DNA from: Candidatus Uhrbacteria bacterium
GTDB lineage: Bacteria > Patescibacteriota > Patescibacteriia > UBA9934
Direction: 5' to 3'
DNA: 64,000 bases
Assembly (NCBI GenBank): GCA_943359345.1
Contig: CALRHE010000003.1
Coordinates: forward strand, 82 to 64,081
Both the position numbers and the translations under genes were made by a program. Below are positions 4,901 through 37,932 of this stretch, in pieces; position 1 is the first letter of the stretch, and each line of letters opens with the position of its first letter. The notes under the pieces are model-generated. The model was not told the DNA's origin. It saw only the letters and a list, made by a program, of their open reading frames with translations, and did not search any database.

Positions 4901-5031
4901 TTAACACAGATTCGTGAGCAGCACGGACAGATTTTACACAGATAGCTAAACGGCCCTACTTGCGTTCGAGGTCGTTTTGGCTTATATCATCTGTGTTAAA
5001 TCTGTAGGCACCGATTAACTATCTGTGTAAA
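4901..5031. repeat. Two interleaved perfect inverted-repeat pairs: TTAACACAGAT / ATCTGTGTTAA and TTTACACAGATAG / CTATCTGTGTAAA.
   Basis: IR-A is 4901-4911 with 4989-4999 (11/11). IR-B is 4933-4945 with 5019-5031 (13/13). The A-B-A'-B' order places four ACACAGAT sites about 33 bp apart, which looks more like protein-binding sites than a simple hairpin. Confidence 0.6.
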
Positions 5032-5106
5032 TCAAAATCAGAGTGAGTGATGGTGTGGAGATTGTGGATAGACCCCCTTCTGTGATAGGTTAAGATTAGT
5101 ATACTG

Positions 5107-5562: not shown

Positions 5563-5609
5563 TCCTCATCCTCATCCTTACCATACCTACTCATTTGCCT
5601 CTCAGATCA

Positions 5610-5705
5610 GGACGGATAGAGACGGATAAGCACGGATGCGAATAATCGTAGCGTTCACTGGAATCGACATTACATCCGTCCACATCCGTCTCTATCCGTG
5701 CTTAT
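5610..5705. repeat. Family-1 palindromic element: ACGGAT decamer repeats forming a long imperfect hairpin.
   Basis: ACGGATAGAGACGGAT (5612-5627) is the exact reverse complement of 5684-5699. An inner CGGATG/CATCCG pair and 10-bp-phased GACGGATAGA|GACGGATAAG|CACGGATGCG units are present. Homologous copies lie at 36465 and 32053. Confidence 0.7.
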
Positions 5706-5742
5706 GGAGGAGATATGTAGTTGGTTTGGTAAGCTGTAATCT

Positions 5743-9476: not shown

Positions 9477-9857
9477 ATGTCTGAAGCCAAGGCCCATGAT
9501 CTCACACCGGATCAGTACAACATCTGTTTCATGAAGGGCACCGAGCCGCCATTTAGCGGCAAGTATTACGATCACCATGAGGCGGGGGAGTATATTTGTG
9601 TGAATTGCGGCAAGTCGTTATTTGGGTCAGACACCAAGTTCGATTCTGGTACAGGCTGGCCGAGTTTTTCGGATGTGGTAAACAAGGGTAACGTTCTGAC
9701 CGAGGTCGACAAAACCTTGGGTATGACCAGAACTGAGGTTAAGTGCGCTAATTGCGAGGCCCATCTCGGTCACGTGTTTGAAGACGGTCCAGCACCTACC
9801 GGGCTACGTTATTGCATCAACTCATTGGCGCTCGATTTTAAACCAATCACCCCTTAA
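9477..9857 (+). CDS. msrB: Peptide methionine sulfoxide reductase B.
   Basis: Two CxxC pairs (CVNCGK / CANCEA) and the RYCINS active-site motif. Confidence 0.8.
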
Positions 9858-9893
9858 CACCGTTAACCCCTTCAACCCCTTCATTCACTCACC
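9848..9893 (+). repeat. C-rich intercistronic motif (CACCCCTTAACACCGTTAACCCCTTCAACCCCTTCATTCACTCACC).
   Basis: It overlaps the msrB stop codon and fills the spacer to the next start. It is the same motif class as 2926, 16475 and 37933. Confidence 0.55.
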
Positions 9894-9900
9894 GCCAGGT

Positions 9901-10455
9901 ATGCAAAAACTTTTTCTCGTTTTGGCCCTGTTACTCACTCTTGGTGCTGGTTGCGTATCGTTGTTTGAGGATCCATCCGCACAGCTAGGTGCTAACAAAA
10001 ACAAGCTCGATGAGAATTCGATTTGTCAAAACACTTGCGGCAACGGCACGTGTGAAGACATCGTATGTCAGGGCACTGGTTGTCCGTGCGCTGAGACCGT
10101 AGATAACTGTCCGCAGGATTGCGCCGAGACAAGCATTGAAAATTTGATCGTGGTCACGTCGCCAAACGTAAACGCAAACATAGATAGTCCAGTTACGGTG
10201 CAAGGCCAGGCTCGCGGTCTTTGGTACTTTGAGGCCTCATTTCCGGTTAAGGTTTACGATGCTAACGACGTTCTGCTTGGTACCGGCGTTGCTCAAGCCC
10301 AGTCTGATTGGATGACCGAAGATTTTGTGGAATTTGTGGCCAGCGTAACTTACACCACACCAACCACAGCCACAGGTACGATAGTTCTTGAAAAAGATAA
10401 TCCCTCAGATCTACCAGAACATGACAACTCCTTGAGTATTCCGATTGTGTTTTAG
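9901..10455 (+). CDS. Lipoprotein with a Cys-rich segment and a C-terminal Ig-like domain.
   Basis: Signal peptide with an LGAGC lipobox, then a CxxxCGNGTCEDIVCQGTGCPC cluster. Confidence 0.55.
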   Translation: MQKLFLVLALLLTLGAGCVSLFEDPSAQLGANKNKLDENSICQNTCGNGTCEDIVCQGTGCPCAETVDNCPQDCAETSIENLIVVTSPNVNANIDSPVTVQGQARGLWYFEASFPVKVYDANDVLLGTGVAQAQSDWMTEDFVEFVASVTYTTPTTATGTIVLEKDNPSDLPEHDNSLSIPIVF

Positions 10456-16465: not shown

Positions 16466-16474
16466 ACCGACATG

Positions 16475-16503
16475 ACCCCTCAACACCATCAGCCCCATTA
16501 ACC
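16475..16503 (+). repeat. C-rich intercistronic motif (GACCCCTCAACACCATCAGCCCCATTAACC).
   Basis: It follows the dnaK stop directly and belongs to the same TCAACCCC class. Confidence 0.5.
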
Positions 16504-16505
16504 TT

Positions 16506-21584: not shown

Positions 21585-24088
21585 TTGGTGCTCAACAACT
21601 CCAAGCTATCTTAATGTCAGTTCTGCCGACGCTCATCATTTTGGGAGTTCTTTTAGTTATTCTCAGTTTGGCTGCTTGGAAGCTGCGCCGGCGCTTTATG
21701 AAGCGAGCCCAAGCCCGTGATGGGGCCAATACCTTGGTTACCTTGCGCATCACGATTCCACGTTTTAAAAATGATGAAGACACCAAGCAGGCTGACAATT
21801 CAAGCAATCAGAAAGATAAGATCGCTGTGGCGGAAACTTTATTCTCGGCTTTGGGTGGACTCAAGCCGGAGCGAGGTTTTTGGAGCTGGTTAGTCGGGCG
21901 CACCGATAACTTTGCGCTTGAGATTGTGGCCCACGAAAAACTTGTGACTTTTTACGTCACAGTACCCCGTCGTTATCAAGAATTTGTAGAACAGCAAATT
22001 CATGCGCAGTGGAGCGACACCTTTGTTGAGCCGGTCGAGGATTACAACATGTTTGCGCCTACTGGCACAGTTGTGGCCGGTTACTTGAAATTTAAGAAAG
22101 AAAACTTATTACCGCTAAAAACTTATAAAGATATTGACGGCGACCCTTTGAACGCACTTACAAACGCCCTGTCTAAGGTGGGGGAGAGTGACGGCCTGGC
22201 CATTCAATACGTATTGCGACCGGCAGCTAGTGGTTGGAGATCGCTCGGTTTGAAGGTCGTCAAAAACATGCAGGCGGGCATGACGTTTAATGAGGCTAAG
22301 CACGGTAAAAAATCACACAGTTGGTTTGCTAACAAGGATACGCTCGAAAAAGACAAGGAAAAAATGCGTGAACGCAAACTTTCGTCCGCCGAAACCAAGA
22401 TGCTTGAAGGTATTGAGAATAAGCTCAGTAAAGCCGCGCTAGAGACCACCATTCGGGTAGTGGCTTCGGCTGGCACCAGCGAGCAAGCCATGATGTATCT
22501 GACTAATGTCTTACAGGCTTTTGGCCAATACAACATTTACGAGTACGGTAATGCTTTTGAGAAGAGTATTCCGTCTTCCAGACACGCCATCATCGAGGGT
22601 TTTATTTTCCGCACGCATAGTTCTAAGCATAGCTTGATTTTGACCACTGAAGAGCTGGCTAGTTTGTGGCACTTGCCGTTGCCCACCACTGAAACCCCGA
22701 ATATTCGCTGGATGAATGCGCGTACAGCGCCGGCACCCACCAACACCCCAACCAGCGGTTTGCACCTGGGTTTCAATGTCTACCGTGGTCGCCAGACCGA
22801 GATTTACATGCAGGACGCTGATCGACGGCGTCACATGTACATGATCGGTAAAACTGGTTCTGGTAAGACTGAGTTAATCAAGAACCTGGCCCTACAAGAT
22901 ATCAAAAATGGTAAAGGCGTAGCTGTGATTGATCCGCACGGTGATTTGGCCGACGACTTGTTGGGCTTGATTCCCAAGGAACGCTTGGATGACGTGATTT
23001 ATTTCAACCCTTCTGACCTAGAGCGTCCGATGGGCTTGAATATGCTTGAGGCGCCTGATGAAAACATGCGAGATTTTGTGGTCCAGGAAATGATCAGTAT
23101 TTTCTACATGTTATTTCCGCCGGAGATGATCGGTCCTATGTTCGAGCACAACATGCGTAACTACATGTTGACACTCATGGCCGACGTGGATAATCCTGGC
23201 ACCATTGTTGAGATCCCGCGCATGATTTCCGATGACGCTTTTCAAAAAGCCTGGGTGGCCAAGGTTAAGGATCCGCTCGTGCGGTCTTTCTGGGAAGACG
23301 AAATGGCTAAAACCTCTGATTATCACAAGAGTGAAATGATGGGCTACCTGGTGTCTAAGGTAGGTCGGTTTGTAGAGAACGAAATGATGCGCAATATCAT
23401 CGGGCAGACTAAGTCTGCTTTCAATTTCAGGGACATCATGGATAACGGCAAGATTTTGTTGGTTAACTTGTCGAAAGGTAAAACTGGTGAAGTTAACGCC
23501 TCACTTCTTGGTTTGATTTTAGTGGCTAAATTACAGATGGCCGCATTCTCTAGAGCCGATGTGCCTGAAGATCAACGACAAGACTTTTATTTGTACATTG
23601 ACGAATTCCAGAACTTCGTGACCCCTTCAATTGCGACCATTCTGTCTGAGGCTCGGAAGTATCGCCTGAATTTAGTGCTTGCTCACCAGTACATGGGGCA
23701 GCTGGTGCGTGATGGCAAGCCAGAAATCCGTGACGCTGTGCTTGGTAACGTCGGTACCATGATGGTGGCCCGGGTTGGTCCTGAGGATATTGAAACACTA
23801 GGTAAAGTGTTCGAACCAACGTTTACCGGGCATGATTTAATGAATACCGACATGTTCACTTGGAACGTGAAGATGATCATCAACAACGCTCAAGCCAAAC
23901 CGTTTACCATGGAAGCTTATCCGCCCACCAAGGCCAGCCGACAGGTGGCCGAGGCCCTTAAGGACATTTCTCGTCTCCAGTACGGGCAGGATAAAGATTC
24001 AGTCGCCAATGACATTTTAGAGCGAGCTGGCTATGCCTCACGTAAGCAGGTTCCTCCCACACCACCGTCGGTACCAACGAGTTTATAG
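21581..24088 (+). CDS. Membrane-anchored VirB4/VirD4-superfamily (TraC/TrbE/TraG-like) type-IV-secretion-type ATPase.
   Basis: N-terminal TM helix. A Walker A (GKTGSGKT) at about residue 425 is followed by a VIDPHGD motif, then Walker B (YIDEFQNF) and an LVLAHQYMGQL (ATQS-like) motif. Confidence 0.55.
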   Translation: MIGAQQLQAILMSVLPTLIILGVLLVILSLAAWKLRRRFMKRAQARDGANTLVTLRITIPRFKNDEDTKQADNSSNQKDKIAVAETLFSALGGLKPERGFWSWLVGRTDNFALEIVAHEKLVTFYVTVPRRYQEFVEQQIHAQWSDTFVEPVEDYNMFAPTGTVVAGYLKFKKENLLPLKTYKDIDGDPLNALTNALSKVGESDGLAIQYVLRPAASGWRSLGLKVVKNMQAGMTFNEAKHGKKSHSWFANKDTLEKDKEKMRERKLSSAETKMLEGIENKLSKAALETTIRVVASAGTSEQAMMYLTNVLQAFGQYNIYEYGNAFEKSIPSSRHAIIEGFIFRTHSSKHSLILTTEELASLWHLPLPTTETPNIRWMNARTAPAPTNTPTSGLHLGFNVYRGRQTEIYMQDADRRRHMYMIGKTGSGKTELIKNLALQDIKNGKGVAVIDPHGDLADDLLGLIPKERLDDVIYFNPSDLERPMGLNMLEAPDENMRDFVVQEMISIFYMLFPPEMIGPMFEHNMRNYMLTLMADVDNPGTIVEIPRMISDDAFQKAWVAKVKDPLVRSFWEDEMAKTSDYHKSEMMGYLVSKVGRFVENEMMRNIIGQTKSAFNFRDIMDNGKILLVNLSKGKTGEVNASLLGLILVAKLQMAAFSRADVPEDQRQDFYLYIDEFQNFVTPSIATILSEARKYRLNLVLAHQYMGQLVRDGKPEIRDAVLGNVGTMMVARVGPEDIETLGKVFEPTFTGHDLMNTDMFTWNVKMIINNAQAKPFTMEAYPPTKASRQVAEALKDISRLQYGQDKDSVANDILERAGYASRKQVPPTPPSVPTSL

Positions 24089-24090
24089 GT

Positions 24091-24207
24091 TTAGAAATTA
24101 CAAAATTAGATATTAGCAGAGAATAGAAAAGAGTACTTAGAATCGTTCCGTTTCAGTCAAATTTCTATTCTCTAATAGCTGCTAATATCTAATTTTGTAA
24201 TTTCTAA
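24091..24207. repeat. Family-2 AT-rich palindromic element, copy 1 (core ATTACAAAATTAGATATTAGCAG in both arms).
   Basis: Inverted repeat of about 40 bp (24091-24129 versus 24162-24207) with a 32-nt loop and one 6-nt indel (CTATTA) between arms. A second copy lies at 30506-30618. Confidence 0.75.
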
Positions 24208-24230
24208 TCCGTAGGGTAATATTCCGCCAT

Positions 24231-25841
24231 ATGGTCGAAGCACTCTATCGTAAATATCGTCCATCAACGTTTGCGGCCGTGGCTGAACAGCAACACGTGG
24301 TGCGGACCGTCTCAAATCAGCTGGCAGCCGGCAAGGTAGCCCATGCTTACTTGTTTGCAGGACCGCGTGGCGTTGGGAAAACCACCATCGCTCGTTTGTT
24401 GGCCAAGGCTTTAAATTGCGAAGGTCGAGCACCTGGCTCAGCTGAACCTTGTAATCAATGTTCAATTTGTATTGATGCCAATGGCGGACGTTTTCTGGAT
24501 ACGGTTGAGATCGACGCCGCTTCGCAAACCAAAGTTGAAGAGACACGTGAAAATATTATCGAGACGGTTCGGTTTGCGCCTTCGCGTGGTAAGTTTAAGG
24601 TTTTCATTATCGATGAGGTTCACATGTTGTCGACCTCGTCCTTTAACGCGCTTTTAAAGACCCTTGAAGAGCCGCCGTCCCACGTGGTGTTTATTTTGGC
24701 CACCACGGAATTGCATAAGATTCCCGCTACGATTATTTCACGTTGCCAACGTTTTGATTTTCATAGGATTCCAGCCAAAGAGATGATTGAACGCTTGCAG
24801 ACTATTGCTACTGCCGAAGGAGTTGAAATTGAGGCCGAGGTCATGGCTGCCATAGCTAGATTATCTGAAGGCTGTTTACGTGATGCTGAGAGTTTACTGG
24901 GTCAGGTGCTGGCGCTTGGTGAGAAAAAAATTACTCTCGAGGTCGCATCTTTGATTATTCCGGCCACTTACGCCGAGGTTGTAACCACTTTAGCTGATGC
25001 CACCACCAAGCGTGATACCACGGCTGTACTTGAGATCGTGAACAAGTTCGTGGAAGACGGTGGTTCAATCCGCCACCTGGTTGACGAATTTATGGAGTTT
25101 ACTCGTTCGCTATTGTTTGCCTCACTCGGGGACACGCATTTTGAGAAATACGATGAAGCCACCCTAAATAAACTCAAAGACTACGCTAAGCGTCTATCAG
25201 CGTCTGAGCTTCAGCAGCTGCTTGATGTGATTTTGACCGCTCGTGGTCGGTCCGCACCCTCCCAATATCCTCAGTTACCCCTTGAGATTGCCCTAGTCGA
25301 GTTTTGCTTGTCCGGGTCTACCCAAGTTCAGCCCCCTGTCGATGACAATTGGGATAACAAGCGTGGCAAAGTAATGGACGACATCTTGCCGCCCTATCGA
25401 CCCACCCCAAAAGTTGAACTGCCTAAGCTACCCGACCTAGCCGTCCTAGCTCCAGCCACACCAGCAGTGAACAGTCAACCGTCAACCTCTCGATTACTTT
25501 CGGGGCAGACGGTCAACGAGTTGGTGACCAACGACGATGTTGCAAGCGTGCGCACTAAATGGGGTCGCTGTGTAGCCATTGTGGGTGAGAAGAATGTGGC
25601 CCTGCCTTTGATTTTGAATAACGCCGAGGTTTTAGGCATCGAAAATGATAAGTTAGTGATTGGTTTTCCTTACCTCATGCACGTGGATAAAATGAACGAG
25701 ATCAAAAATTTACGCCTTATAGAAGAAGCCGTTGAGAGCGTAGTCATGAAAAAGCTTAGCTTAATTTTCGTTCAGCATAAGGCCAAGCAAGACGAAGCTG
25801 TAACCGACCTTCTAGCCGTTTTCGGCGGATCGGTTATCTAG
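24231..25841 (+). CDS. dnaX: DNA polymerase III subunit gamma/tau.
   Basis: AAA+ clamp-loader motifs YRPSTF...GPRGVGKTT, a zinc module CNQCSIC and the SRC motif (ISRCQRF). Confidence 0.85.
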   Translation: MVEALYRKYRPSTFAAVAEQQHVVRTVSNQLAAGKVAHAYLFAGPRGVGKTTIARLLAKALNCEGRAPGSAEPCNQCSICIDANGGRFLDTVEIDAASQTKVEETRENIIETVRFAPSRGKFKVFIIDEVHMLSTSSFNALLKTLEEPPSHVVFILATTELHKIPATIISRCQRFDFHRIPAKEMIERLQTIATAEGVEIEAEVMAAIARLSEGCLRDAESLLGQVLALGEKKITLEVASLIIPATYAEVVTTLADATTKRDTTAVLEIVNKFVEDGGSIRHLVDEFMEFTRSLLFASLGDTHFEKYDEATLNKLKDYAKRLSASELQQLLDVILTARGRSAPSQYPQLPLEIALVEFCLSGSTQVQPPVDDNWDNKRGKVMDDILPPYRPTPKVELPKLPDLAVLAPATPAVNSQPSTSRLLSGQTVNELVTNDDVASVRTKWGRCVAIVGEKNVALPLILNNAEVLGIENDKLVIGFPYLMHVDKMNEIKNLRLIEEAVESVVMKKLSLIFVQHKAKQDEAVTDLLAVFGGSVI

Positions 25842-26051
25842 TCATCGTTGTTTTGCAGGCCTATTTAGACTTGCGGAAAATCATAATTTAAGCTATTCTA
25901 GACCAGGATTTTGCAACGTTTGAAGAGGCGGTGATTTATTTGAGAATAGTTCTAGGAGATGATTGAGTAAGGCCGAGGCGTATATATGAAACGGGGAGGC
26001 CGACGGAAATCGACGACAACGAAATATTCCAAATCAATAATTGCCTAGTAT

Positions 26052-26125
26052 TCCGGGATCGTCTAAAGGCAGGACGAGGGACTCTGAATCCCTTAATCTT
26101 GGTTCGAATCCAAGTCCCGGAACCA
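26052..26125 (+). tRNA. tRNA-Gln (anticodon CUG), with an encoded CCA end.
   Basis: Manual cloverleaf fold. Acceptor TCCGGGA/TCCCGGA (U1:A72 as in bacterial tRNA-Gln), D-stem GTCT/GGAC with a GG loop, anticodon stem AGGGA/TCCCT, loop CT-CTG-AA, T-arm CTTGG-TTCGAAT-CCAAG, discriminator A and CCA. Confidence 0.85.
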
Positions 26126-26166
26126 CAAAAACACCTTTGCTTCGGCGGAGGTGTTTTTGTGGTTCC
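26125..26166 (+). terminator. Long hairpin capped by a UUCG tetraloop, acting as an intrinsic terminator after tRNA-Gln.
   Basis: ACAAAAACACCUUUGC-UUCG-GCGGAGGUGUUUUUGU. The inner GC-rich stem is followed by a U5 tract. Together with the tRNA 3' end it forms a 56-nt palindrome (26115-26170). Confidence 0.6.
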
Positions 26167-26292
26167 GGGACAGAGAAAGCCACCTGCTTGGCTTTCGACG
26201 GATTCGAACGCCGGAGCGATGTGCAGATACCAATCGGCACTGCGAGGCGGTGGCCAGGCCGATGGGAGTGACGGCGACCCGAGAGCCGAGGC

Positions 26293-26313
26293 CGAATCCA
26301 AGTCCCGGAACCA
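26293..26313 (+). repeat. Direct duplicate of the 21-nt 3' end of tRNA-Gln (CGAATCCAAGTCCCGGAACCA), an att-like integration scar.
   Basis: Identical to 26105-26125. There is no upstream D-arm or T-stem partner, so it is a fragment and not a second tRNA. Confidence 0.7.
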
Positions 26314-26385
26314 TCACGACCTGTTCCTACAGACCCACCTTCGCTGATTAGCTTCGGTGGGCAAGCCGGGACAGGGGGTGACCAA

Positions 26386-26420
26386 GAAAACCCGTACTCT
26401 GCATTGAGTACGGGTTTTCG
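26386..26420. terminator. Bidirectional intrinsic terminator (GAAAA-CCCGTACTC-tgcatt-GAGTACGGG-TTTTCG).
   Basis: A 9-bp perfect stem with an A-tract upstream and a U-tract downstream. It lies just past the 3' end of the minus-strand recombinase fragment. Confidence 0.7.
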
Positions 26421-26445
26421 ATTGGATCTAGTGTTCAATGCTCTT

Positions 26446-26736
26446 TTACAAATGAGCGAGATGCTGTTCGAGTTCGCGGATAAACCCCTGATCCACCATA
26501 TCCACGATTGTCCCAAAATCCCTTGCGTTACGGTTCAAGCGATCTGGTGCCCAGGCAAGGATGCCGTCGAACCGCTTCAGCTTTATATCGTCAATGAGAC
26601 GATTGAATTCTGGTCGTTGGCCTGACGCCTTGGCTGAATGGCTTTCACGACGTATCTCGGTGACGAGCAATCCGTCTCGTTCCGCCGTGGCAAGCATCTC
26701 TTTCACCTGTGCTTCGAAGCTCCCTATATTCTCCAT
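26446..26736 (-). pseudogene. Truncated serine recombinase (resolvase/invertase catalytic domain only, 96 aa).
   Basis: IGSFEAQ (catalytic Ser/Gln position), SGQRPEFNRLIDDI and ILAWAPDRLNRNARDF match the resolvase core (RVSTxxQ ... SGxxxxRPxLxxLL ... VVxKLDRLGRS). The ORF stops right after helix D and has no E-helix or HTH domain. Confidence 0.6.
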
Positions 26737-26750
26737 ACGTTCGCCTTGTT

Positions 26751-26776
26751 ATGTGGCATGGACATTAATGCCACAT
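26751..26776. promoter_or_regulatory. 26-bp dyad (ATGTGGCATGGA-CA-TTAATGCCACAT), a candidate recombinase crossover/binding site.
   Basis: The 9-bp perfect arms extend to 12-bp half-sites matching 10 of 12 around a central CA dinucleotide. It lies 15 nt upstream of the recombinase fragment start. hix/gix/res subsites have the same 26-bp size and architecture. Confidence 0.45.
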
Positions 26777-26854
26777 TTGTCCGGGGTGCCTAGTCCGGGG
26801 AGTAGGTAAGTTATATGGAGTAAAAAGGTCGTTTCGTGATAAAATAATTACAAT

Positions 26855-28561
26855 ATGGCTCCTCGAGAATTTCCGCGATCCCCCGAACATCAACAACAAA
26901 GAGATGAGCTCGCTCGATCCGTTAAAGTGGACCGACAAGAACGCGACGAACTTAGACAGGAGTCCAAAACGCTTACAGGGCGGTTGCGGAAAGTTCTTGG
27001 CGGTAAAGATGCAAACGCGTTGGCGGATGTGGCGGCGAGGTCGGCCGATGAAAAACTGGCAGTTGGTCGAAGCGGGCTTGAGACAAAAGAGCGGGCACAT
27101 GAGTGGGATCAACTTGCCTTTACGCTGGAAAAAGCCGAGGAATTCGTTCGGCGAATACCGAGTATCGCAGAAGATGAAACGGAAAAGATGTGGCGAGCCG
27201 TGACTTCTCATCGTTCAGTTTTTGAAGAAGCATTGCAGGATTCGGAACGCGCAGGAGTCGTTCTCAAGCACCTCTCCTGGTTTTCACGTAATGGACGAGG
27301 AGCAAGTGGAAATGAGGCCGAAGCTGAATACTTCACATGGGTTCGTGAGCATCTGCCGTTTGTTGCAAGCTTGGCGGAAAAAGATGACGTAAATGCTCGT
27401 GGTGGATTTGCACGGGCGTTGGTCGACCTTTGGCGAAGGGTTCCCGAATCCCGAGATGAAGTTATCGCAATAATAAATGCGCATATAGATGTTATTGATG
27501 GTCTCGCGCGTACTGCAGAAGCGGATGCGGATTTTGCAGAGGCGCGGTCACTGCTTGGTGTTGTGCTTCGAAAGGGATCAAAAGAGGCAAAGGCTCAGGT
27601 AATGGAAAGTATCGGGTCGGTTTTTCGTCAGAAAGGCCAGCGCGCTGAAGATATTGTACGACTTGTATTTGATTGCGTGGGAGAGAATGTTAAAGATAGT
27701 GATGCGCTTGAACGGTCATTTGTCGCAAAACTTGCCGAAGCCTACGATATGCAGCCCGAGGGCTTGCTTCATGCATGGCGACTGTCACACGATAGAGGCG
27801 CAACGGTAGAACATATGCGATCGCTCTGTCGTCTTGAAGAACAAAGCCCTGGTGCGGCAAAACGTTTGGATGAAGATTTTGGCGTTCGCGCCTTCGCACG
27901 GTATCCTATAGAATTGCTCCTCCGACAAGCAGCCGATGCGGATAAAGGAAAGCCTTATGGCGTAATCATCATGGCGCGTGGCGATCATAACGGGAGTTTT
28001 CATCGACAAGCCTATAAGTGGTCGGATTTATTGAAAGATATAGGCGATACTCACGCTATCCGTATCATCGAAGCAGAAAGTAAGGATGAACTCACTGCGT
28101 ATGTATTAGGCATGTACCAGCGATATCAAGAGGACGGAAAGATATCGTTCGTACACATGAACGGTCACGGAAGTCCAGAGAGCATCAACCTCGGATACGA
28201 ACTCTTGCCATTTCAAGTGGATGAACGATTTGAGTTGCATCGTCTTCCTGGCCGTTTAGAAAAACAGCTCACTAAAAATGATTTATTTGGTGTTGGATAT
28301 CGCGAAGCTATAGGAATTTTTGAAGAGCATCCGACATTTGTACTTTCCTCCTGCTCAACAGGGGCGTCGCTAGGCATCGGACAGGAACTCTCGGCAATGT
28401 ACGGCGCAGAAGTTGTCGCGCCGCGTGATCCGACGAGCTTAGATCATATTCGAGCAAAGGTTGTGGATGGAAGAGTCCAGTTTGACGCCCGTTTCCAGGG
28501 CGGCGATTGGATTACGCGTCACTATGATCGAGGAAGGCTCATCGAGGCCCCTACGGAGTAG
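26855..28561 (+). CDS. Two-domain protein with an N-terminal charged alpha-helical region and a C-terminal caspase/CHAT-like (clan CD, C14-like) peptidase domain.
   Basis: A GVIIMARGDHNGSF beta-strand start leads to ISFVHMNGHG (hydrophobic strand then His-Gly), and about 65 aa later TFVLSSCSTG (hydrophobic strand then Cys). This mirrors the His/Cys dyad arrangement of metacaspase/CHAT domains. The gene is cargo next to the recombinase remnant. Confidence 0.5.
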   Translation: MAPREFPRSPEHQQQRDELARSVKVDRQERDELRQESKTLTGRLRKVLGGKDANALADVAARSADEKLAVGRSGLETKERAHEWDQLAFTLEKAEEFVRRIPSIAEDETEKMWRAVTSHRSVFEEALQDSERAGVVLKHLSWFSRNGRGASGNEAEAEYFTWVREHLPFVASLAEKDDVNARGGFARALVDLWRRVPESRDEVIAIINAHIDVIDGLARTAEADADFAEARSLLGVVLRKGSKEAKAQVMESIGSVFRQKGQRAEDIVRLVFDCVGENVKDSDALERSFVAKLAEAYDMQPEGLLHAWRLSHDRGATVEHMRSLCRLEEQSPGAAKRLDEDFGVRAFARYPIELLLRQAADADKGKPYGVIIMARGDHNGSFHRQAYKWSDLLKDIGDTHAIRIIEAESKDELTAYVLGMYQRYQEDGKISFVHMNGHGSPESINLGYELLPFQVDERFELHRLPGRLEKQLTKNDLFGVGYREAIGIFEEHPTFVLSSCSTGASLGIGQELSAMYGAEVVAPRDPTSLDHIRAKVVDGRVQFDARFQGGDWITRHYDRGRLIEAPTE

Positions 28562-28835
28562 AAACCGGAAGGGTTTTTCAGTGAGACATAGGGAGAAGTT
28601 CATATATCGCAATAATATTCCTGATATTAGCCGTAAATGTTTAAATGAGACGCTGTCTCAATACCCCGTATGTAGTGTCTTATTTGTCTCATTTCACCCC
28701 CAAGCCGTGTTCCACTTTGTGCCAGTTTTAACCCTCAGTTCTATCCGACCGGGACAGGGTTGGCAGGCAGGTAGAAGGGTGCCTCAAAGCCCCCTCATAG
28801 GCTCCAATCTAAACCGGGCCGCAGAACCAGTAAAA

Positions 28836-28864
28836 CCCCCAGACTTCGGTCGTGGGGTTTTATT
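28836..28864 (+). terminator. Intrinsic terminator with a UUCG tetraloop (CCCCAGAC-UUCG-GUCgUGGGG followed by UUUUAUU).
   Basis: An 8-bp stem with a 1-nt bulge is flanked by an A-tract and a U-tract. Confidence 0.6.
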
Positions 28865-28878
28865 GACCAGAGACAGTT

Positions 28879-29259
28879 TTGTCTGTACGCTTGCGGCAGT
28901 TTATGAAGCTTTCTGGCCAAGTGGTCCGCGGACAAGGTTTTGCTACGCTTGCTTTTGGTATCCCAACAGCCAATCTAGAGTTTAACGAAGCGATTACTCT
29001 TAAACCGGGTGCTTATGCGGCTTATACTTATGTAGGATCGGAGCGTTACGCATCAGTGGCTTATACGGGTCCGCAGGGGAGTGAAAAATTTGAGGTGCAT
29101 TTATTTGATTTTTCAGGAGATTTATACGATCAGATGCTTGAGATCGAGGTTTTAAAGATGGTAAGCCCCCATGTAGCCTGGGAAAGTGAGGAGCAAATGA
29201 AGGCTAAGGTGGTGGCTGACGTGGAGCTTGCCAAGGCCTACTTTTCCACAGCAATCTAG
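28879..29259 (+). CDS. ribF: Riboflavin kinase (flavokinase domain, monofunctional).
   Basis: GQVVRGQGFATLAFGIPTANL ... EVHLFDFSGDLYDQMLEIEVLKMV matches the flavokinase core (GxVVxGxGRGxxLGFPTANL ... EvHlldFxgDLYG). The start may be the internal Met at 28903. Confidence 0.65.
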   Translation: MSVRLRQFMKLSGQVVRGQGFATLAFGIPTANLEFNEAITLKPGAYAAYTYVGSERYASVAYTGPQGSEKFEVHLFDFSGDLYDQMLEIEVLKMVSPHVAWESEEQMKAKVVADVELAKAYFSTAI

Positions 29260-29262
29260 CCC

Positions 29263-29496
29263 TTGCCAAAGATTTTTGGGGGTTATAATATACCCACACT
29301 AAATTTTATAGTTACGCGTATGCCCACACCGACGGCGACAGAACTTGAACTCAAAGTCCTAACTCCTGTTTCTTTTATGGACGACTCTGATTCAGATTCT
29401 GACAAGAGTGACGATGAGGAAGTTGATATGGATGAAGAGGGTGACGAAGATGAAGAAGACGATGAAGATGAGGATGAGGAAGACGAGGCTGAGTAG
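29263..29496 (+). CDS. Hypothetical protein with an extremely acidic D/E-rich C-terminal tail.
   Basis: ORF ending in DDSDSDSDKSDDEEVDMDEEGDEDEEDDEDEDEEDEAE. The start is uncertain, possibly the Met at 29320. Confidence 0.3.
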   Translation: MPKIFGGYNIPTLNFIVTRMPTPTATELELKVLTPVSFMDDSDSDSDKSDDEEVDMDEEGDEDEEDDEDEDEEDEAE

Positions 29497-30478: not shown

Positions 30479-30505
30479 AAGAAGAAGCAGAATACATTAA
30501 AGGAT

Positions 30506-30618
30506 CAGAAATTACAAAATTAGATATTAGCAGCTATTAGAGAAGTAGATATTAGACTCCTGATGGATTGGATCTAATTACTATTTTCTATTCTCTGCTA
30601 ATATCTAATTTTGTAATG
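30506..30618. repeat. Family-2 AT-rich palindromic element, copy 2.
   Basis: Left arm GAAATTACAAAATTAGATATTAGCAGCTATTAGAGAAG. The right arm is the reverse complement of CATTACAAAATTAGATATTAGCAGAGAATAGAAA. It sits in the divergent dus / RNase-J-like promoter region. Confidence 0.75.
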
Positions 30619-30663
30619 ACTAATCCTTCAAACTCCACACACCTTGCTATACTTGTATGTGTT

Positions 30664-32034
30664 ATGCGTTTGTCCTTCCATGGTGCCGTTGAAGAGGTGA
30701 CTGGATCATGTTTTTTAGTTGAAACAAAACGGGCTAAAGTTTTAATTGATGCTGGCATGAAGCAGGGTGAACGTATGTGCGTGACGCGCAGCCTGGATCC
30801 ATTTGGTTTTGATGTCACAGAGCTTGATGCTGTACTCGTCACCCATGCTCACTTTGATCATACCGGGCGCTTACCAGAACTCATCAAACTTGGTTATCGG
30901 GGCCCCATTTACATGACCGCTCCTACTAAGGCTCTAGTTGAGATTATTTTGGATGATGCCTTGAAAATCATGGCTGAAAACGCTGAACGCTGCGGTGACC
31001 CTACGCCTTACAGCGCGGATCACAAGCAGCTGGCTATGTCACTCATGCAGGGCCTGGGTTATCACACTGAATTTGAGGCCGCGCCCGGAATCAAGGTCAT
31101 GTTTCATGATGCTGGTCACATTCTGGGGTCATCTTTTGTGTCACTTGACCTTGAAGACTCGTTGACTGAAACAGGTAAACCCAAGCGGATAATTTTTAGC
31201 GGCGACATTGGTAACGATCACATTCCCATTTTGCCGGAGACCGAGTCTATCCATCAAGCTGATGTTGTAGTTTGTGAGTCGACTTATGGAGATTCAATTC
31301 ACGAACCGTCTGAGACCCGTACTTTGAGGCTGGCAGATTTTGCTAGCAAAGTTTTAAAGCGCGGGGGCACGCTGGTAATCCCAGCTTTTTCAATTGAACG
31401 TACTCAGGAACTTTTGCACGAGCTCGATATTATGCTGCTCGAGAAAAAACTTCCGGCTGTACCTATTTATCTAGATAGTCCGATGGCGATTAGAACGACT
31501 GAGGTTTATCGACACTTTAAACATTACTTGCATTTCGATCACCCCGTACTTGGACCTGACCAGGATTTTTTCTCATTTCCGTCTTTGCATGAAACCATGT
31601 CGACCGAGGAATCAAAGCAGATTAACCAAGATAAGCGGGCTAAGATTATTCTTGCCGGCAACGGCATGATGACCGGCGGACGAGTCCTGCATCATCTTAA
31701 ACATCACCTTGAGGATCCTTTAAGCGGGGTCCTGATTGTTGGCTACCAGGCGGCAGGAACGTTGGGACGTAGAATTTTTGATCGTGAAAAAACAGTGCGT
31801 ATTTACCGGGAAGAATATCAAGTCAGGGCCGAGGTTTTGGCTATTGGTGCTTTTTCAGCTCATGCTGACAAAGCTAAGCTGTTACGTTGGTTACACCCAG
31901 AGGAGGGTCAGGTGGCTAAAATCTTTTTGGTCCACGGCGATAATCCCGTGAAAGATGCCTTTGCAAAGTTTTTGAGTAAATCACTGTCGGCCGAGATTAT
32001 CATTCCGCGTTTATCGCAGACGTTTGAACTGTAA
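30664..32034 (+). CDS. Beta-CASP metallo-beta-lactamase-fold ribonuclease (RNase J / CPSF-like).
   Basis: HAHFDHTG (HxHxDH) plus beta-CASP motifs A (ESTYGD), B (SAHAD) and C (LVHGD). The start was set at MRLSFHG, downstream of the family-2 repeat. Confidence 0.75.
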   Translation: MRLSFHGAVEEVTGSCFLVETKRAKVLIDAGMKQGERMCVTRSLDPFGFDVTELDAVLVTHAHFDHTGRLPELIKLGYRGPIYMTAPTKALVEIILDDALKIMAENAERCGDPTPYSADHKQLAMSLMQGLGYHTEFEAAPGIKVMFHDAGHILGSSFVSLDLEDSLTETGKPKRIIFSGDIGNDHIPILPETESIHQADVVVCESTYGDSIHEPSETRTLRLADFASKVLKRGGTLVIPAFSIERTQELLHELDIMLLEKKLPAVPIYLDSPMAIRTTEVYRHFKHYLHFDHPVLGPDQDFFSFPSLHETMSTEESKQINQDKRAKIILAGNGMMTGGRVLHHLKHHLEDPLSGVLIVGYQAAGTLGRRIFDREKTVRIYREEYQVRAEVLAIGAFSAHADKAKLLRWLHPEEGQVAKIFLVHGDNPVKDAFAKFLSKSLSAEIIIPRLSQTFEL

Positions 32035-32052
32035 ACCAATACCTTTAAAAAT

Positions 32053-32084
32053 ATCAGGACGGATGGAGACGGATATGGACAGAG
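32053..32084. repeat. Family-1 half-element (ATCAGGACGGATGGAGACGGATATGGACAGAG) with no inverted partner.
   Basis: It shares the ATCAGGACGGATRGAGACGGATA core with 5604-5630 and 36470-36498. It is followed by a 7-bp hairpin (CAGACCC/GGGTCTG) between convergent genes. Confidence 0.55.
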
Positions 32085-32107
32085 TTTTCCAGACCCTTCA
32101 TATACAT

Positions 32108-32722
32108 TCAGGGTCTGAGACCAGTCCACTCGTAAAAACTTTTCGCAGCGGAGGTTGAGGGATCGAAGGAATTTGTCGAGATCAACGAGCCATCAAAAGT
32201 GTTGAATCGAGAAGTGAGCGAGGCCGTCGGCGTGAAGGCCGGGGTTTTTATTTTACAAGCGTCAGTAGCTAGGGGAGTGACATCAAGCTCATCACGCCAA
32301 CTGTAATGCACAAACTCACAAGCCGAGCCCTTAACTTGAGCAATTAGATTCCGAGCTTTGATGCTCGCTAAGCCATCTACAATCACTCGACCTTGAATTA
32401 GTTCGAGTTGAGTTTCGGTCTGGGCGGCAGGATTACGGTAATAACTTAAGCGCAGCTGCGTATTTTGGTCTAGATATAGATGCGTGCCATCGCAGAGTTC
32501 ATATTCGGCGTAATCATCTGCGCTCGTTGACATGATCTGGCCGCGTCCGACGACGGTGTCTCCGTAGACCAGTGTTGCCTGACATGGCTCGATACCACCA
32601 GAACCACCGGCCCAACGGGCGTCTAAACGTTGACCAACGAGAAGAACGCCAACCGTAATCACGATGAGCACGAGCAAAAAGATTAGGCTAACATTTCGCA
32701 TATTCACAGGCGAGTATGCCAT
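32108..32722 (-). CDS. Hypothetical N-terminally membrane-anchored protein.
   Basis: An N-terminal TM helix (VSLIFLLVLIVITVGVLLV) followed by an extracytoplasmic domain. No motif was recognised. Confidence 0.5.
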   Translation of the reverse strand: MAYSPVNMRNVSLIFLLVLIVITVGVLLVGQRLDARWAGGSGGIEPCQATLVYGDTVVGRGQIMSTSADDYAEYELCDGTHLYLDQNTQLRLSYYRNPAAQTETQLELIQGRVIVDGLASIKARNLIAQVKGSACEFVHYSWRDELDVTPLATDACKIKTPAFTPTASLTSRFNTFDGSLISTNSFDPSTSAAKSFYEWTGLRP

Positions 32723-35300: not shown

Positions 35301-36447
35301 ATACTTTTTTGACGAGTGCAGTGACTAGCTCTACATGCGGTGTGTGGGGGAACATGTCTATGGCGCGAATATGCTCGACATCATAATATTTTCCGAGTTC
35401 CACCATTTCCCGTGCGAAGTTTTTATAGTTACAGGATACGTAAACGATGCGTGATGGTAGGGCAGCGATGACATCACGCAGAGCTTTGTCGTGCATGCCG
35501 GCACGTGGCGGGTCGAGAATTACCACATCAGCTCCAATTTCCATCCAGTTGTAGTCTTCGGTTTTGGCGTCATGGAAATCGATTGTGACACCATTCAGCT
35601 CAGCGTTTAAGCGAGCGTCTTTGATAGCTTCGGGCACAAGCTCGACGCCGAGAGTTTGCTTAGCATCATTGGCCATTGAGATAGCGAAGAAGCCTGTACC
35701 GCAGTAAAGGTCGAGCAAGGTTTTGTCGGTTAGGTCGCCCGCAAACTCACGGATAGTATCCTGCAAGTAGACAGCTCCAGTTGGATTGGTTTGAAAGAAA
35801 GCGTTTGGTGAAATACGATATTTGTAACCGCCGATGTGTTCTTCGATAGCCCCAGGGCCGTATAAAACTCGCAGCTCATCCCCAATTGAGACATCGGAGA
35901 TGGTGTGGTTAAGCGACCAAACAAGGGTCGTGGGGCCAGCCAGATCGTTGAGTTTCTCGAAAGCTAGTTTAGCGGCGGCTTCTTCGTCAGCATCTTTCGG
36001 CGTGCTGGTCACGATCGTTAACATCGTTTGTCCAAGTGTGGTTGATCGGATGACCGCGTAACGCAAGAAACCGATATTGGCTTTACGATCGTAAAAACTC
36101 AGACCAGCATTTTTAGCCCAGTCACGAGCAGCCGTATATAGAGTATCGATCTGTTCGTCGGCGAGAAAACAAGAGTGATCGTCAATCACGCGCCACCATT
36201 TGCCCTTTTCACGTAGCCCGACGGCACCCTGCCAGTCGATCACAAAGTCCATGCGATTGCGGTAGTGCTCGGTTTTAGGTGCGGGAATAATTTCCTCGAC
36301 TCGGAGGTCGAGTTTTTTGATTTTAAACGAACCGTTAATATCGGAGAGTTTTTGCTGGAGTTGTTTCTGATAGGGAATGTGTGACCAGCCACATGAACCG
36401 CAGACATCAGGTTTGGGGCAAAGCGTTTGCATATTTGAACATTCCAA
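35299..36447 (-). CDS. rlmD: 23S rRNA (uracil-5)-methyltransferase, RlmD/RumA family.
   Basis: N-terminal Cys cluster (CPKPDVCGSCGWS), a SAM site LDLYCGTGFF and a DPPRAG motif. Confidence 0.75.
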   Translation of the reverse strand: MECSNMQTLCPKPDVCGSCGWSHIPYQKQLQQKLSDINGSFKIKKLDLRVEEIIPAPKTEHYRNRMDFVIDWQGAVGLREKGKWWRVIDDHSCFLADEQIDTLYTAARDWAKNAGLSFYDRKANIGFLRYAVIRSTTLGQTMLTIVTSTPKDADEEAAAKLAFEKLNDLAGPTTLVWSLNHTISDVSIGDELRVLYGPGAIEEHIGGYKYRISPNAFFQTNPTGAVYLQDTIREFAGDLTDKTLLDLYCGTGFFAISMANDAKQTLGVELVPEAIKDARLNAELNGVTIDFHDAKTEDYNWMEIGADVVILDPPRAGMHDKALRDVIAALPSRIVYVSCNYKNFAREMVELGKYYDVEHIRAIDMFPHTPHVELVTALVKKV

Positions 36448-36464
36448 CCCAATTTAAATAAACT

Positions 36465-36570
36465 GATTGGGACAGATGGAGACGGATTGGGACGGATGCC
36501 AGACGATGTGGGATAGTGTGACTCGGGCTTATTTTACATCCGTTCATATCCGTCTCCATCTGTTCTTATG
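36465..36570. repeat. Family-1 palindromic element (second full copy).
   Basis: ACAGATGGAGACGGAT (36472-36487) is the exact reverse complement of 36549-36564, and an ACGGATG/CATCCGT extension follows. It sits in the divergent rlmD / trmH-like intergenic region. Confidence 0.7.
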
Positions 36571-36645
36571 GCAGCCTCGGTAGAGTTGGTTTGGTGGTTA
36601 TACCTGAGTACTCGGTAATTGTAAAAATAACCTAAATAAGTTATC

Positions 36646-37931: not shown

Positions 37932-37932
37932 G

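What the first reader, a model, noticed from the sequence alone, without database searches (positions are those of the whole stretch)
5610..5705. Family-1 palindromic repeat element built from phased ACGGAT decamers, in three copies (5610, 36465, half-copy 32053)
The loci share the ATCAGGACGGATRGAGACGGATA core. Two form about 100-nt imperfect hairpins with 16-bp perfect stems (ACGGATAGAGACGGAT/ATCCGTCTCTATCCGT at 5612-5627/5684-5699; ACAGATGGAGACGGAT/ATCCGTCTCCATCTGT at 36472-36487/36549-36564) plus an ACGGATG extension. The 10-bp phasing of GACGGATNNN units puts the motif on one helical face. All copies are intergenic: upstream of the PBP gene, in the rlmD/trmH divergent region, and at a convergent gene junction. 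This is a REP/MITE-like element family or a small structured-RNA family not described by any gene call.
Basis: seen in the sequence. Interest (0 to 1): 0.6.

Follow-up and report, generated by a model that had tools for sequence, protein, structure and literature searches.

The report
ACGGAT-decamer inverted-array intergenic repeat element
The reported palindromes are real: they are recent insertions in a candidate-phyla-radiation bacterium, and they belong to an apparently undescribed repeat family, built from inward-facing arrays of a phased ACGGAT decamer, that also occurs in at least six bacterial phyla and in phages.

Summary
**Observation:** confirmed. Window 5606-5705 and 36466-36569 are imperfect palindromes. 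Each arm is three 10-bp-phased (G)ACGGAT units. 32053-32083 is a single arm.

**Size:** the elements are larger than reported, about 155-175 nt with conserved caps and TTGGKTTGG tails.

**Host and history:** the host is a Patescibacteria (CPR) bacterium.
- A 99.4%-identical strain carries identical copies.
- Relatives at 74-94% protein identity lack all copies at the orthologous sites.
- Those relatives have no arrays in about 140 kb, so the copies are lineage-specific insertions, not conserved regulators.

**Family:** arms of 3-4 units with consensus KRAC-ACGGAT at 9-10 bp spacing recur in Chloroflexota, Acidobacteriota, Verrucomicrobiota, Omnitrophota, Calditrichota, another CPR genome and real tailed phages.

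**Polarity:** ACGGAT arrays come first, then ATCCGT arrays. In the whole viral collection this order gave 11 loci and the reverse order gave none.

**Conservation pattern:** units are conserved. Inner spacers, loops (3-150 nt) and flanks are not, and many arms are solo.

**Prior description:** no Rfam family, no paper and no cultured phage or plasmid matches it.

**Best reading (0.4):** a non-autonomous mobile element whose ends are arrays of binding sites for an unidentified protein. No transposase and no target duplication was found.

The parts
5577..5733 (.). Copy 1, whole palindrome: tail, cap, 3 units, loop, 3 units, cap, tail. It fills almost all of the gap between the 151-aa ORF (stop at 5562) and the PBP start (GTG at 5743).
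   Evidence: Fold -69.8 kcal/mol, z = -5.75. Arm+tail profile hits 5579-5639(-) and 5672-5731(+). Relatives have only 6, 41 or 19 nt at this position.
5606..5638 (+). Copy 1 left arm: ATCAGG-ACGGAT-AGAG-ACGGAT-AAGC-ACGGAT-G
   Evidence: I6, D3
5639..5672 (.). Copy 1 loop, unrelated in sequence to the loop of copy 2
5673..5705 (+). Copy 1 right arm: C-ATCCGT-CCAC-ATCCGT-CTCT-ATCCGT-GCTTAT
   Evidence: I6
5706..5731 (+). Copy 1 right tail (GG...GTAGTTGGTTTGGT). The left side, 5579-5605, mirrors it.
36442..36596 (.). Copy 2, whole palindrome in the divergent region between the tRNA-U5-methyltransferase-like gene (-) and the SpoU-methylase gene (+). Arms are 36466-36498 and 36537-36569.
   Evidence: (I10). 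Identical in a 99.4%-identical strain and absent in three relatives.
32031..32084 (-). Copy 3: a single arm (two good units and one degenerate unit) plus tail, at a convergent gene junction
   Evidence: (D3, D6, I8). In relatives the convergent genes overlap and have no gap.
32089..32118 (.). Separate G+C-rich hairpin (CCAGACCCT...AGGGTCTG) next to copy 3, where the missing arm would be. It lacks a T run and was not called a terminator.
4906..5027 (.). Possible variant element: mirror-symmetric ACAGAT / ATCTGT units (spacings 21 and 11, then 11 and 22) around a weak hairpin. It sits where relatives have a plain intrinsic terminator after the ribonucleotide reductase gene. The CPR arm profile does not detect it.

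Best explanation
The three loci are copies of a small non-autonomous mobile DNA element, MITE-like in the broad sense.

**Structure.** Each end is an array of 3 (elsewhere 4) head-to-tail decamers with consensus K-R-A-C-ACGGAT, spaced 9-10 bp. Each array is capped on the outside by a short conserved sequence: CCATAAGGAC or ATYRGGAC in CPR, AATAGGAC in Chloroflexota, GGAAACC in several phages. The two arrays always point at each other. What lies between them is free to vary, from 3 nt to about 150 nt, sometimes including an intrinsic terminator.

**Inferred mechanism.** I infer that a sequence-specific DNA-binding protein acting in trans (a transposase or recombinase, or a domesticated relative) binds one monomer per decamer on roughly one face of the helix, pairs the two ends, and moves or copies the unit. 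Phages would carry the family between hosts.

**Side effect.** When transcribed, the unit would also form a long imperfect hairpin, which may secondarily affect mRNA ends.

**What is shown:** the anatomy, polarity, insertion polymorphism, spread and conservation pattern.

**What is inferred:** the protein, the DNA (rather than RNA) level of recognition, and the mobility mechanism.
For: **1. Insertion polymorphism.**
- Copy 1 sits in a 180-nt gap that is 6, 41 or 19 nt in relatives with 81, 77 and 74% identical PBP.
- Copies 2 and 3 are identical in a 99.4%-identical strain. They are absent in three relatives with 90-94% identical Era.
- No arm is found in about 140 kb of relatives.
- Another CPR genome (DnaK 94.5% identical) has a half element after dnaK where the window has none.

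**2. Defined, asymmetric ends with exchangeable content.**
- An Opitutaceae MAG (70% GC) and another MAG (60% GC) share both arms, 32/32 and 33/34 nt, including non-complementary inner spacers. Their loops (94 vs 120 nt) and flanks are unrelated.
- The two full window copies share arms and tails but not loops.

**3. Strict polarity, as expected for transposon ends.**
- In loci fetched from genomes there are 32 compact forward-then-reverse pairs against 7 reverse-then-forward. Five of those 7 are junctions inside one tandem cluster, and two more lie between adjacent elements.
- In the whole viral collection there are 11 loci against 0.

**4. Sequence, not pairing, is conserved.**
- Eight of ten unit positions are constrained over 150 unique arms.
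- Spacers are 57% complementary between arms against 41% in the control, and 14 of 76 differ in length.

**5. Other features typical of mobile repeats.**
- Solo arms are common.
- Tandem clusters occur (L018).
- One phage has 3 copies that are 89-95% identical, loops included.
- Unit number differs between orthologous copies in two related phages.

**6. Carriage by real phages.** These contigs encode a tape measure protein, terminases and Mu-like proteins.

**7. No orientation bias toward gene starts or ends**, by a crude ORF call: 37 against 52.
Against: - **No partner gene.** No transposase, recombinase or other recurrent partner gene was found near arrays in about 86 loci. The only recurrent neighbours are terminases and Mu-like phage proteins. 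In the window the only recombinase is a resolvase fragment, in a strain-variable island.
- **No target-site duplication.** None is visible in the window copies or in three aligned copies of one phage. No empty site with alignable flanks was obtained, so the exact junctions are unknown.
- **Unrelated loops.** Typical MITE bursts give copies similar along their whole length. Here loops are unrelated even within one genome.
- **Compensatory changes.** Outer spacers and caps show compensatory changes between arms: 32 cells against 13.9 in shuffles. This is also what hairpin selection would give, although shared descent of the two ends can produce it too.
- **Bracketed phage genes.** In phages the arrays also bracket ordinary genes such as a prohead-protease-like ORF. 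This fits an RNA or regulatory role as well.
- **Other words, same layout.** Arrays built from other words share the architecture in the same genomes. This hints at a more general process than one transposase.
Confidence: 0.4

Rival explanations
1. REP-like functional RNA or ssDNA hairpin. The unit matters as a long imperfect stem in mRNA, acting as a 3'-end stabiliser, an RNase III-type processing site between cistrons, or an attenuator. It spreads or persists because hosts and phages benefit.
For: - Strong folding: -52 to -70 kcal/mol, z -3.7 to -6.3.
- In phage L151 the elements fill the gaps between co-directional structural genes. They start within about 10 nt of the stop codon and end 15-40 nt before the next ATG.
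- Several loops hold a terminator hairpin with compensatory changes between copies.
- CPR copy L248 has a bidirectional terminator in its loop.
- In the window an ACAGAT-unit palindrome replaces the plain terminator of relatives.
- In the symmetric subset 90% of cells pair, with compensatory changes in the outer spacer and cap.
Against: - Hexamers are invariant across phyla, which a pure structure does not require.
- Inner spacers are mostly unpaired, spacer lengths differ between arms, and overall spacer complementarity is 57% against 41% in the control.
- Most arrays are solo.
- There is no T run after the stem and no terminator call.
- Copy 2 sits between divergent promoters, where no 3' end is expected.
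- The copies are not conserved in relatives.
- No Rfam match.
Confidence: 0.22
2. Operator or roadblock arrays that are not themselves mobile. A host or phage DNA-binding protein oligomerises head-to-tail on phased direct repeats, as OmpR-, MraZ-, ParR- or Xis-type proteins do. It binds the two inward-facing arrays to insulate, silence or terminate transcription around the enclosed segment.
For: - Units are 8/10 conserved with 9-10 bp spacing and 3-4 per array.
- Arms are conserved while spacers, loops and flanks drift.
- Arrays flank terminators or whole genes in phages.
- The strict inward polarity would fit a polar block.
Against: - A regulon would be conserved at orthologous promoters, but the sites are absent from close relatives.
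- There is no consistent orientation to gene starts or ends.
- The same word occurs in six phyla and in unrelated phages, which would need one very widely shared regulator.
- No candidate protein was found.
- Tandem clusters of whole units (L018) look like repeat proliferation.
Confidence: 0.2
3. CsrA/RsmE-type RNA sites. The ACGGAU arm is an array of A(N)GGA sites that titrates or recruits a CsrA-like translational regulator.
For: The unit C-ACGGAU-G is the same string as the RsmE-binding hcnA Shine-Dalgarno RNA, GGGCUUCACGGAUGAAGCCC (PMC13287468). With inward polarity, transcripts from either side meet the ACGGAU arm first.
Against: - ACAGAT and GCAGAT units, which destroy GGA, make up 49 of 500 units, and whole elements are built from them.
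- In a full element the GGA arm is paired with the other arm, whereas Csr proteins need exposed GGA.
- The ATCCGT arm would have no role.
- No CsrA gene was looked for or found.
- This is a resemblance, not a test.
Confidence: 0.05
4. By-product of a general repeat-generating process. Slippage would create short tandem repeats in intergenic DNA, followed by inverted duplication or palindrome revision, with no dedicated machinery. The ACGGAT word would be just one of several.
For: - The same window has inverted arrays of a different 9-mer: GGGGTTGAT x3 / CCCCTCAAC x3 at 37899-37964, plus solo arrays elsewhere.
- Phage and Calditrichaceae loci carry CTCTGTG or ATTCGTG arrays beside ATCCGT arrays.
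- Unit number changes by exactly one unit between related phages.
Against: - A random process would not give the same 8-of-10 consensus, cap and polarity in six phyla and in phages.
- It would not give arms that are identical, spacers included, in genomes of 60% and 70% GC.
Confidence: 0.1

Closest known systems
REP / BIME / REPIN elements with RAYT (TnpA-REP) transposases
   Same: Short, extragenic, imperfect palindromes in many copies. They are often at gene ends, sometimes in tandem clusters of alternating orientation, and can act as mRNA hairpins.
   Different: - REPs are single 20-40-nt stems tagged by GTAG or CGTC, and they are species-specific.
- Here each arm is an array of 3-4 phased decamers, and the same word is shared across phyla and phages.
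- GTAG occurs in only 3 of 7 CPR tails, and not at the stem foot.
- No Y1/RAYT gene was seen.
- Pairing of the spacers is poorly kept.
Bacterial MITEs (e.g. Correia/NEMIS, ERIC, RUP, Nezha)
   Same: Non-coding, 100-200 bp, with terminal inverted repeats. They are intergenic, insertion-polymorphic between relatives, and able to fold as RNA.
   Different: - Known MITEs have simple TIRs derived from a named IS, target-site duplications, and copies similar along their whole length.
- Here the TIRs are internally repetitive.
- No duplication and no parent IS was found.
- The interior is unrelated between copies.
Transposon ends with several transposase-binding sites (Mu attL/attR, Tn7 ends; eukaryotic hAT Ac/Ds AAACGG and En/Spm subterminal repeats) - comparison from my own knowledge
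   Same: Each end carries several copies of a short binding motif in fixed orientation relative to the tip. The left and right ends differ in detail, and the cargo is free.
   Different: - Mu and Tn7 sites are about 22 bp and not spaced one helical turn apart.
- The hAT and CACTA cases are eukaryotic.
- No cognate transposase is known here.
- Membership cannot be claimed.
Phased direct-repeat operators (OmpR F1-F3, MraZ boxes, R1 ParR iterons, lambda Xis sites) - comparison from my own knowledge
   Same: Three to six head-to-tail sites at 10-11 bp spacing, bound by a protein filament or ring on one face of the DNA.
   Different: Those are single-locus regulatory or partition sites conserved at orthologous positions. 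These are multi-copy, lineage-specific and arranged as inward-facing pairs.
RsmE/CsrA binding site of hcnA (PMC13287468)
   Same: Identical 8-mer, CACGGAUG.
   Different: Csr targets expose GGA in loops, singly or in irregular arrays. Here the arms are paired, and GGA-destroying ACAGAT variants are tolerated.

Membership tests
REP/REPIN (RAYT-associated) | Single 20-40-nt imperfect palindrome, in high copy number, extragenic | tested here: inconclusive
   The elements are extragenic and multi-copy. However, they are 100-175 nt with composite arms. Genome-wide copy number is unknown: there are 5 arms in 64 kb.
REP/REPIN (RAYT-associated) | Conserved GTAG (or CGTC) tetranucleotide at the foot of the stem | tested here: not met
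   The caps are ATYRGGAC or CCATAAGGAC. GTAG is seen in only 3 of 7 CPR tails, about 17 nt outside the array. CGTC occurs inside units of the CPR subfamily only, not in GAAC-spaced subfamilies.
REP/REPIN (RAYT-associated) | A RAYT (Y1 HUH) gene flanked by the repeats in the same genome | not testable with these tools
   Only 64 kb of the genome and 8-kb pieces of others are held. None was seen near arrays.
MITE | Terminal inverted repeats with defined ends | tested here: met
   Similarity between copies starts and stops at the caps or tails.
MITE | Presence/absence polymorphism at orthologous sites | tested here: met
MITE | Target-site duplication flanking each copy | tested here: not met
   No direct repeat flanks the window copies or three copies in phage L261. 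The junctions could not be fixed exactly because the empty sites are too diverged.
MITE | TIRs matching those of an autonomous IS that supplies the transposase | not tested
   No IS database was available. No transposase lies between array pairs 0.2-1.3 kb apart.
Structured RNA family (Rfam-type) | Match to a curated covariance model | tested here: not met
   Only tRNAs and one M-box were found at gathering score. At the E-value threshold there were only generic miRNA-hairpin hits, 13-25 bits against thresholds of 62-95.
Structured RNA family (Rfam-type) | Stems kept by compensatory change while sequence varies | tested here: inconclusive
   - The hexamer pairs never vary.
- The outer spacer and cap show compensatory changes: 32 cells against 13.9 in shuffles.
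- The inner spacer is unpaired in 8 of 12 sequences.
- Over all elements, spacer complementarity is 57% against 41% in the control.
- Shared descent of the two ends can give the same signal.
Intrinsic terminator | G+C-rich stem followed by a T run | tested here: not met
   No terminator is called at any copy. In other subfamilies the stem is preceded by a T run and followed by an A run, the reverse of a terminator. Terminators do occur inside some loops.
CsrA/Rsm-binding RNA | Exposed A(N)GGA motifs required for function | tested here: not met
   GGA is lost in 49 of 500 units and in whole ACAGAT elements. The GGA arm is base-paired in full elements.

The most novel reading that the evidence does not exclude
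The ACGGAT decamer arrays are the recognition code of a so far unidentified, very widely distributed DNA-binding or transposition machinery, probably phage-borne. This would define a new superfamily of small mobile elements: ends made of phased binding sites, strictly inward polarity and free cargo. It would be shared by CPR bacteria, Chloroflexota, Acidobacteriota, Verrucomicrobiota, Omnitrophota, Calditrichota and tailed phages.
Probability: 0.3. Interest if true: 0.8.

Novelty: new variant of a known kind. Interest (0 to 1): 0.62.

Why it matters
Small palindromic repeats such as REPs and MITEs are normally species-specific. Here one 8-of-10-nt word, one spacing and one polarity recur in phyla as far apart as Patescibacteria and Chloroflexota, and in tailed phages. 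This implies a shared recognition partner and gene flow between very distant, mostly uncultured lineages.

It also matters for annotation and genome evolution:
- The elements add about 150-180 nt to intergenic gaps in streamlined CPR genomes.
- In one case a variant ACAGAT-unit palindrome sits where relatives have a plain terminator.
- They could be mistaken for riboswitch-like leaders.

If the partner protein were found, the arrays would offer a ready-made, modular DNA-binding code. They would also serve as a marker for phage-host links in uncultured groups.

Tried and rejected
- **Rfam.** Tried at gathering and E-value thresholds on the window and on 18 array-bearing loci. Nothing relevant.
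- **Literature.** Searched for the hexamer with repeat terms, for six explicit decamer strings, and for MITE, CPR and phage terms. No description was found.
- **Cultured phages and plasmids.** BLAST gave no match to a synthetic array or to plasmids. There were only 27-50-nt hits to uncultured gut phage contigs and chance hits in Vibrio and Bacillus phages.
- **HIP1-type cyanobacterial origin.** Rejected: GCGATCGC is at chance level.
- **Conserved PBP leader or riboswitch.** Rejected, because relatives lack the element.
- **Exact insertion junctions and target duplications.** The intergenic DNA of the nearest element-free relatives is unalignable, and three phage copies show no duplication.
- **Partner protein.**
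  - ORFs enclosed by distant forward/reverse array pairs are ordinary phage genes or unknowns.
  - All-against-all clustering of 1583 ORFs near arrays gave only terminases, Mu-like Gp27 and housekeeping genes.
  - The strain-variable island in the window holds only a resolvase fragment.
- **CPR-specific end pattern in viral contigs.** No hit, so there is no direct evidence for a CPR phage vector.
- **Promoter and terminator scans at the copies.** At chance level.
- **Break-healing model.** I considered a telomerase-like or double-strand-break-healing process that adds repeats to both 3' ends, which would explain the polarity. I rejected it for the CPR copies because caps and tails outside the arrays are conserved between copies, and variant units are shared by both arms.
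- **Period-9 arrays in viral contigs.** Set aside as possible coding repeats.

Full report
**1. The observation**

- Reading the three loci confirms the description.
- At 5606-5705 and 36466-36569 there are imperfect palindromes. The left arms carry three (G)AC(G/A)GAT units exactly 10 bp apart, and the right arms carry the three reverse complements.
- The 16-nt perfect stems are as stated. The right stem of copy 2 is at 36548-36563, one base left of the report.
- 32053-32083 is a single arm.
- GACGGATNNNGACGGAT with up to two mismatches occurs 13 times in the window, against 0.22 expected; no shuffle reaches this.
- The repeat finder returns the arms as families D3, I6 and I10.
- As RNA the two full copies fold with z-scores of -3.7 to -6.3.
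- All copies lie between called genes.

**2. True extent of the elements**

- Alignment of all arms of this subfamily shows that similarity continues outward. It runs through a cap (CCATAAGGAC or ATYRGGAC), about 12 variable bases, and a TTGGKTTGG tail on both sides.
- A profile of arm plus tail finds exactly five arms in the window: 5579-5639(-), 5672-5731(+), 36442-36499(-), 36536-36596(+) and 32031-32084(-).
- Copy 1 therefore fills nearly the whole 180-nt gap between the stop of a 151-aa ORF and the GTG start of the PBP gene. It folds at -69.8 kcal/mol.
- The two full copies share arms and tails, but their 36-40-nt loops are unrelated.
- A mirror-symmetric set of ACAGAT / ATCTGT units at 4906-5027 may be a variant element. 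The profile does not detect it.

**3. Host and evolutionary status**

- The window matches an ENA metagenome assembly. The closest named homologues of its PBP and Era proteins are from Patescibacteria / Candidatus Uhrbacteria.
- Syntenic loci from relatives were fetched.
  - Where PBP is 81, 77 and 74% identical, the gap holding copy 1 is only 6, 41 and 19 nt.
  - A strain 99.4% identical in DNA has identical copies 2 and 3.
  - Three relatives with 90-94% identical Era lack them. Their divergent gap is 61-108 nt, and the convergent genes overlap.
- No array or arm is found in about 140 kb of these relatives.
- A second CPR genome, from Hainich groundwater with DnaK 94.5% identical, carries the same subfamily at other places. 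These include a half element after dnaK, where the window has none.
- The copies are therefore lineage-specific insertions, not conserved cis-regulators of the adjacent genes.

**4. A much larger family**

By my own estimate a 16-base pattern gives a few hundred chance hits in 596 Gb, so many of the 119 loci are noise.
- However, 35 of them hold arrays of at least three units. Many show the same layout: an ACGGAT array, a short interval, then an ATCCGT array.
- Record titles place the full elements in these groups:
  - Roseiflexus, Caldilinea, Anaerolineae and other Chloroflexota;
  - Pyrinomonadaceae (Acidobacteriota);
  - Opitutaceae (Verrucomicrobiota);
  - Omnitrophota;
  - Calditrichaceae;
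  - Patescibacteria.
  - One contig, L151, encodes a tape measure protein, tail proteins and a reverse transcriptase. It has five to six elements filling the gaps between co-directional genes.
  - Others encode terminases and Mu-like Gam and Gp27.
- Over 150 unique arms the unit logo is K-R-A-C-ACGGAT.
  - C at -1 is 61-85%.
  - Hexamer counts are ACGGAT 411, GCGGAT 40, ACAGAT 35 and GCAGAT 14.
  - Spacings are mostly 10/10, 9/10 or 10/10/10.
  - Arrays have three or four units.

**5. Polarity**

- Among fetched loci, compact pairs (200 nt or less apart) are forward-then-reverse 32 times and reverse-then-forward 7 times. Five of those 7 are junctions between neighbouring units of one tandem cluster, and two lie between adjacent elements.
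- A clean test on the whole viral collection used two units per arm and a 20-50-nt interval (24 specified bases, so chance expectation is far below one). The results were:
  - forward-then-reverse: 11 loci;
  - reverse-then-forward: 0 loci;
  - forward-then-forward: 6 loci.
- The arrays therefore face each other in one fixed sense.

**6. What is conserved and what is not**

- The hexamers and the AC before them are nearly invariant.
- Spacers between units are only 57% complementary between the two arms, against 41% between unrelated elements. Fourteen of 76 spacer pairs differ in length.
- In the subset with symmetric 10/10 spacing:
  - 90% of cells pair;
  - the outer spacer and cap show compensatory differences between subfamilies (32 cells against 13.9 in shuffles);
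  - the innermost spacer is unpaired in 8 of 12.
- An Opitutaceae MAG (70% GC) and another MAG (60% GC) have arms identical at 32/32 and 33/34 positions, including non-complementary spacers. Their loops and flanks cannot be aligned.
- One phage has three copies that are 89-95% identical, loops included.
- Two related phages differ by exactly one unit in an orthologous copy.
- About 60% of arrays have no partner within 200 nt.
- By a crude ORF call the outer cap faces gene ends 52 times and gene starts 37 times, so there is no clear bias.

**7. Relation to terminators and genes**

- Loops range from 3 to about 150 nt.
- Some loops contain a strong hairpin with a T run: phage L151, CPR L248 (which is bidirectional) and Omnitrophota L085.
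- In the window, relatives have a plain intrinsic terminator after the ribonucleotide reductase gene. The window instead has the ACAGAT-unit palindrome around a weak hairpin.
- The elements themselves are not terminator-like. No T run follows them, and scans are at chance.
- In several phages a forward and a reverse array lie 0.2-1.3 kb apart and bracket ordinary genes, none of which is a transposase.

**8. Interpretation**

- Several features are what the ends of a transposable unit look like when each end carries several binding sites for its protein:
  - defined caps;
  - distinct but conserved left and right arms;
  - fixed inward polarity;
  - free interior;
  - solo arms and tandem clusters;
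  - insertion polymorphism;
  - carriage by phages.
- I therefore favour a non-autonomous mobile element mobilised in trans, with confidence 0.4.
- The weak points are serious:
  - no partner gene;
  - no target duplication;
  - loops unrelated even within a genome;
  - arrays of other words with the same layout in the same genomes.
- The rivals are:
  - an RNA-level, REP-like role (0.22);
  - fixed operator or roadblock arrays (0.2);
  - a general repeat-generating process (0.1);
  - CsrA-type sites (0.05).
- The CsrA idea rests on the identity of CACGGAUG with the RsmE-binding hcnA site. It is weakened by tolerated ACAGAT units and by pairing of the GGA arm.
- An RNA side effect is compatible with the mobile-element reading and may explain why copies persist at gene boundaries.

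**9. Novelty**

- No Rfam family matches.
- No open-access paper holds the decamer strings.
- No cultured phage or plasmid matches.
- The kind of object, a small intergenic palindromic repeat, is known.
- The composite phased-decamer arms, the strict polarity and the spread across phyla and phages are not, as far as these searches reach. I rate it a new variant of a known kind.

Noticed in passing
window 37899-37964; also 2919-2966, 9850-9896, 16467-16505: A second array family built from a 9-mer. GGGGTTGAT x3 is followed by CCCCTCAAC x3 at 37899-37964, which is the same inverted-array architecture with the G-rich arm first. Solo C-rich CCCCTYAAC arrays lie in other intergenic gaps. One abuts the ribonucleotide reductase start at 2968 and one follows dnaK.
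   Followed up: partly
window 24079-24210 and 30497-30635: Two AT-rich palindromes of about 130 nt, each with 83% complementary arms and 85-98% alike, bracket a 6.4-kb segment.
   Followed up: partly
window 25840-29496 (tRNA-Gln at 26052-26125; inverted repeat 26114-26171): Inside the bracketed segment, about 3.6 kb differs from a strain that is otherwise 99.4% identical, which has about 1 kb there. The stretch holds a 96-aa resolvase N-terminal fragment and a 568-aa ORF with no Pfam hit. It sits next to tRNA-Gln, which overlaps a perfect 23-bp inverted repeat. This looks like the remnant of an integrated element.
   Followed up: partly
L144 (2034-6516) and L083 (4726-5025): In a Mu-like phage contig and a Calditrichaceae MAG, ATCCGT arrays sit beside arrays of other words (CTCTGTG, ATTCGTG). 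These have the same 9-10-bp period and the same GGTTAA/GGCTAA + A/T-run cap.
   Followed up: no
L151 11844-13064: The phage contig richest in elements encodes a reverse transcriptase (PHROG 1423, E = 6e-106) next to tail genes, possibly a diversity-generating retroelement. Two elements lie just upstream, at 9992-10416.
   Followed up: no
L021 2226-2362 and L040 2120-2145: In both a Roseiflexus MAG and a CPR MAG the element lies directly downstream of dnaK (HSP70). This may be coincidence or a preference for the ends of highly expressed genes.
   Followed up: no
L102 2782-2815: The 149-nt loop of a Chloroflexia element starts with its own tandem heptamer run (GGATGAG GGATGAG GGATGAG...).
   Followed up: no
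window 5084-5104 and the same place in L121, L122, L124: A conserved motif (T)AGTATACTGA(T/G)GCC lies just upstream of the 151-aa ORF in the window and in three relatives, while the rest of the gap is unalignable. It is probably the promoter -10 region or start of that operon.
   Followed up: no
window 38890-39120: Repeated DNA encoding Asp-rich thrombospondin-type-3-like repeats, inside the PKD-domain protein gene downstream of copy 2.
   Followed up: no
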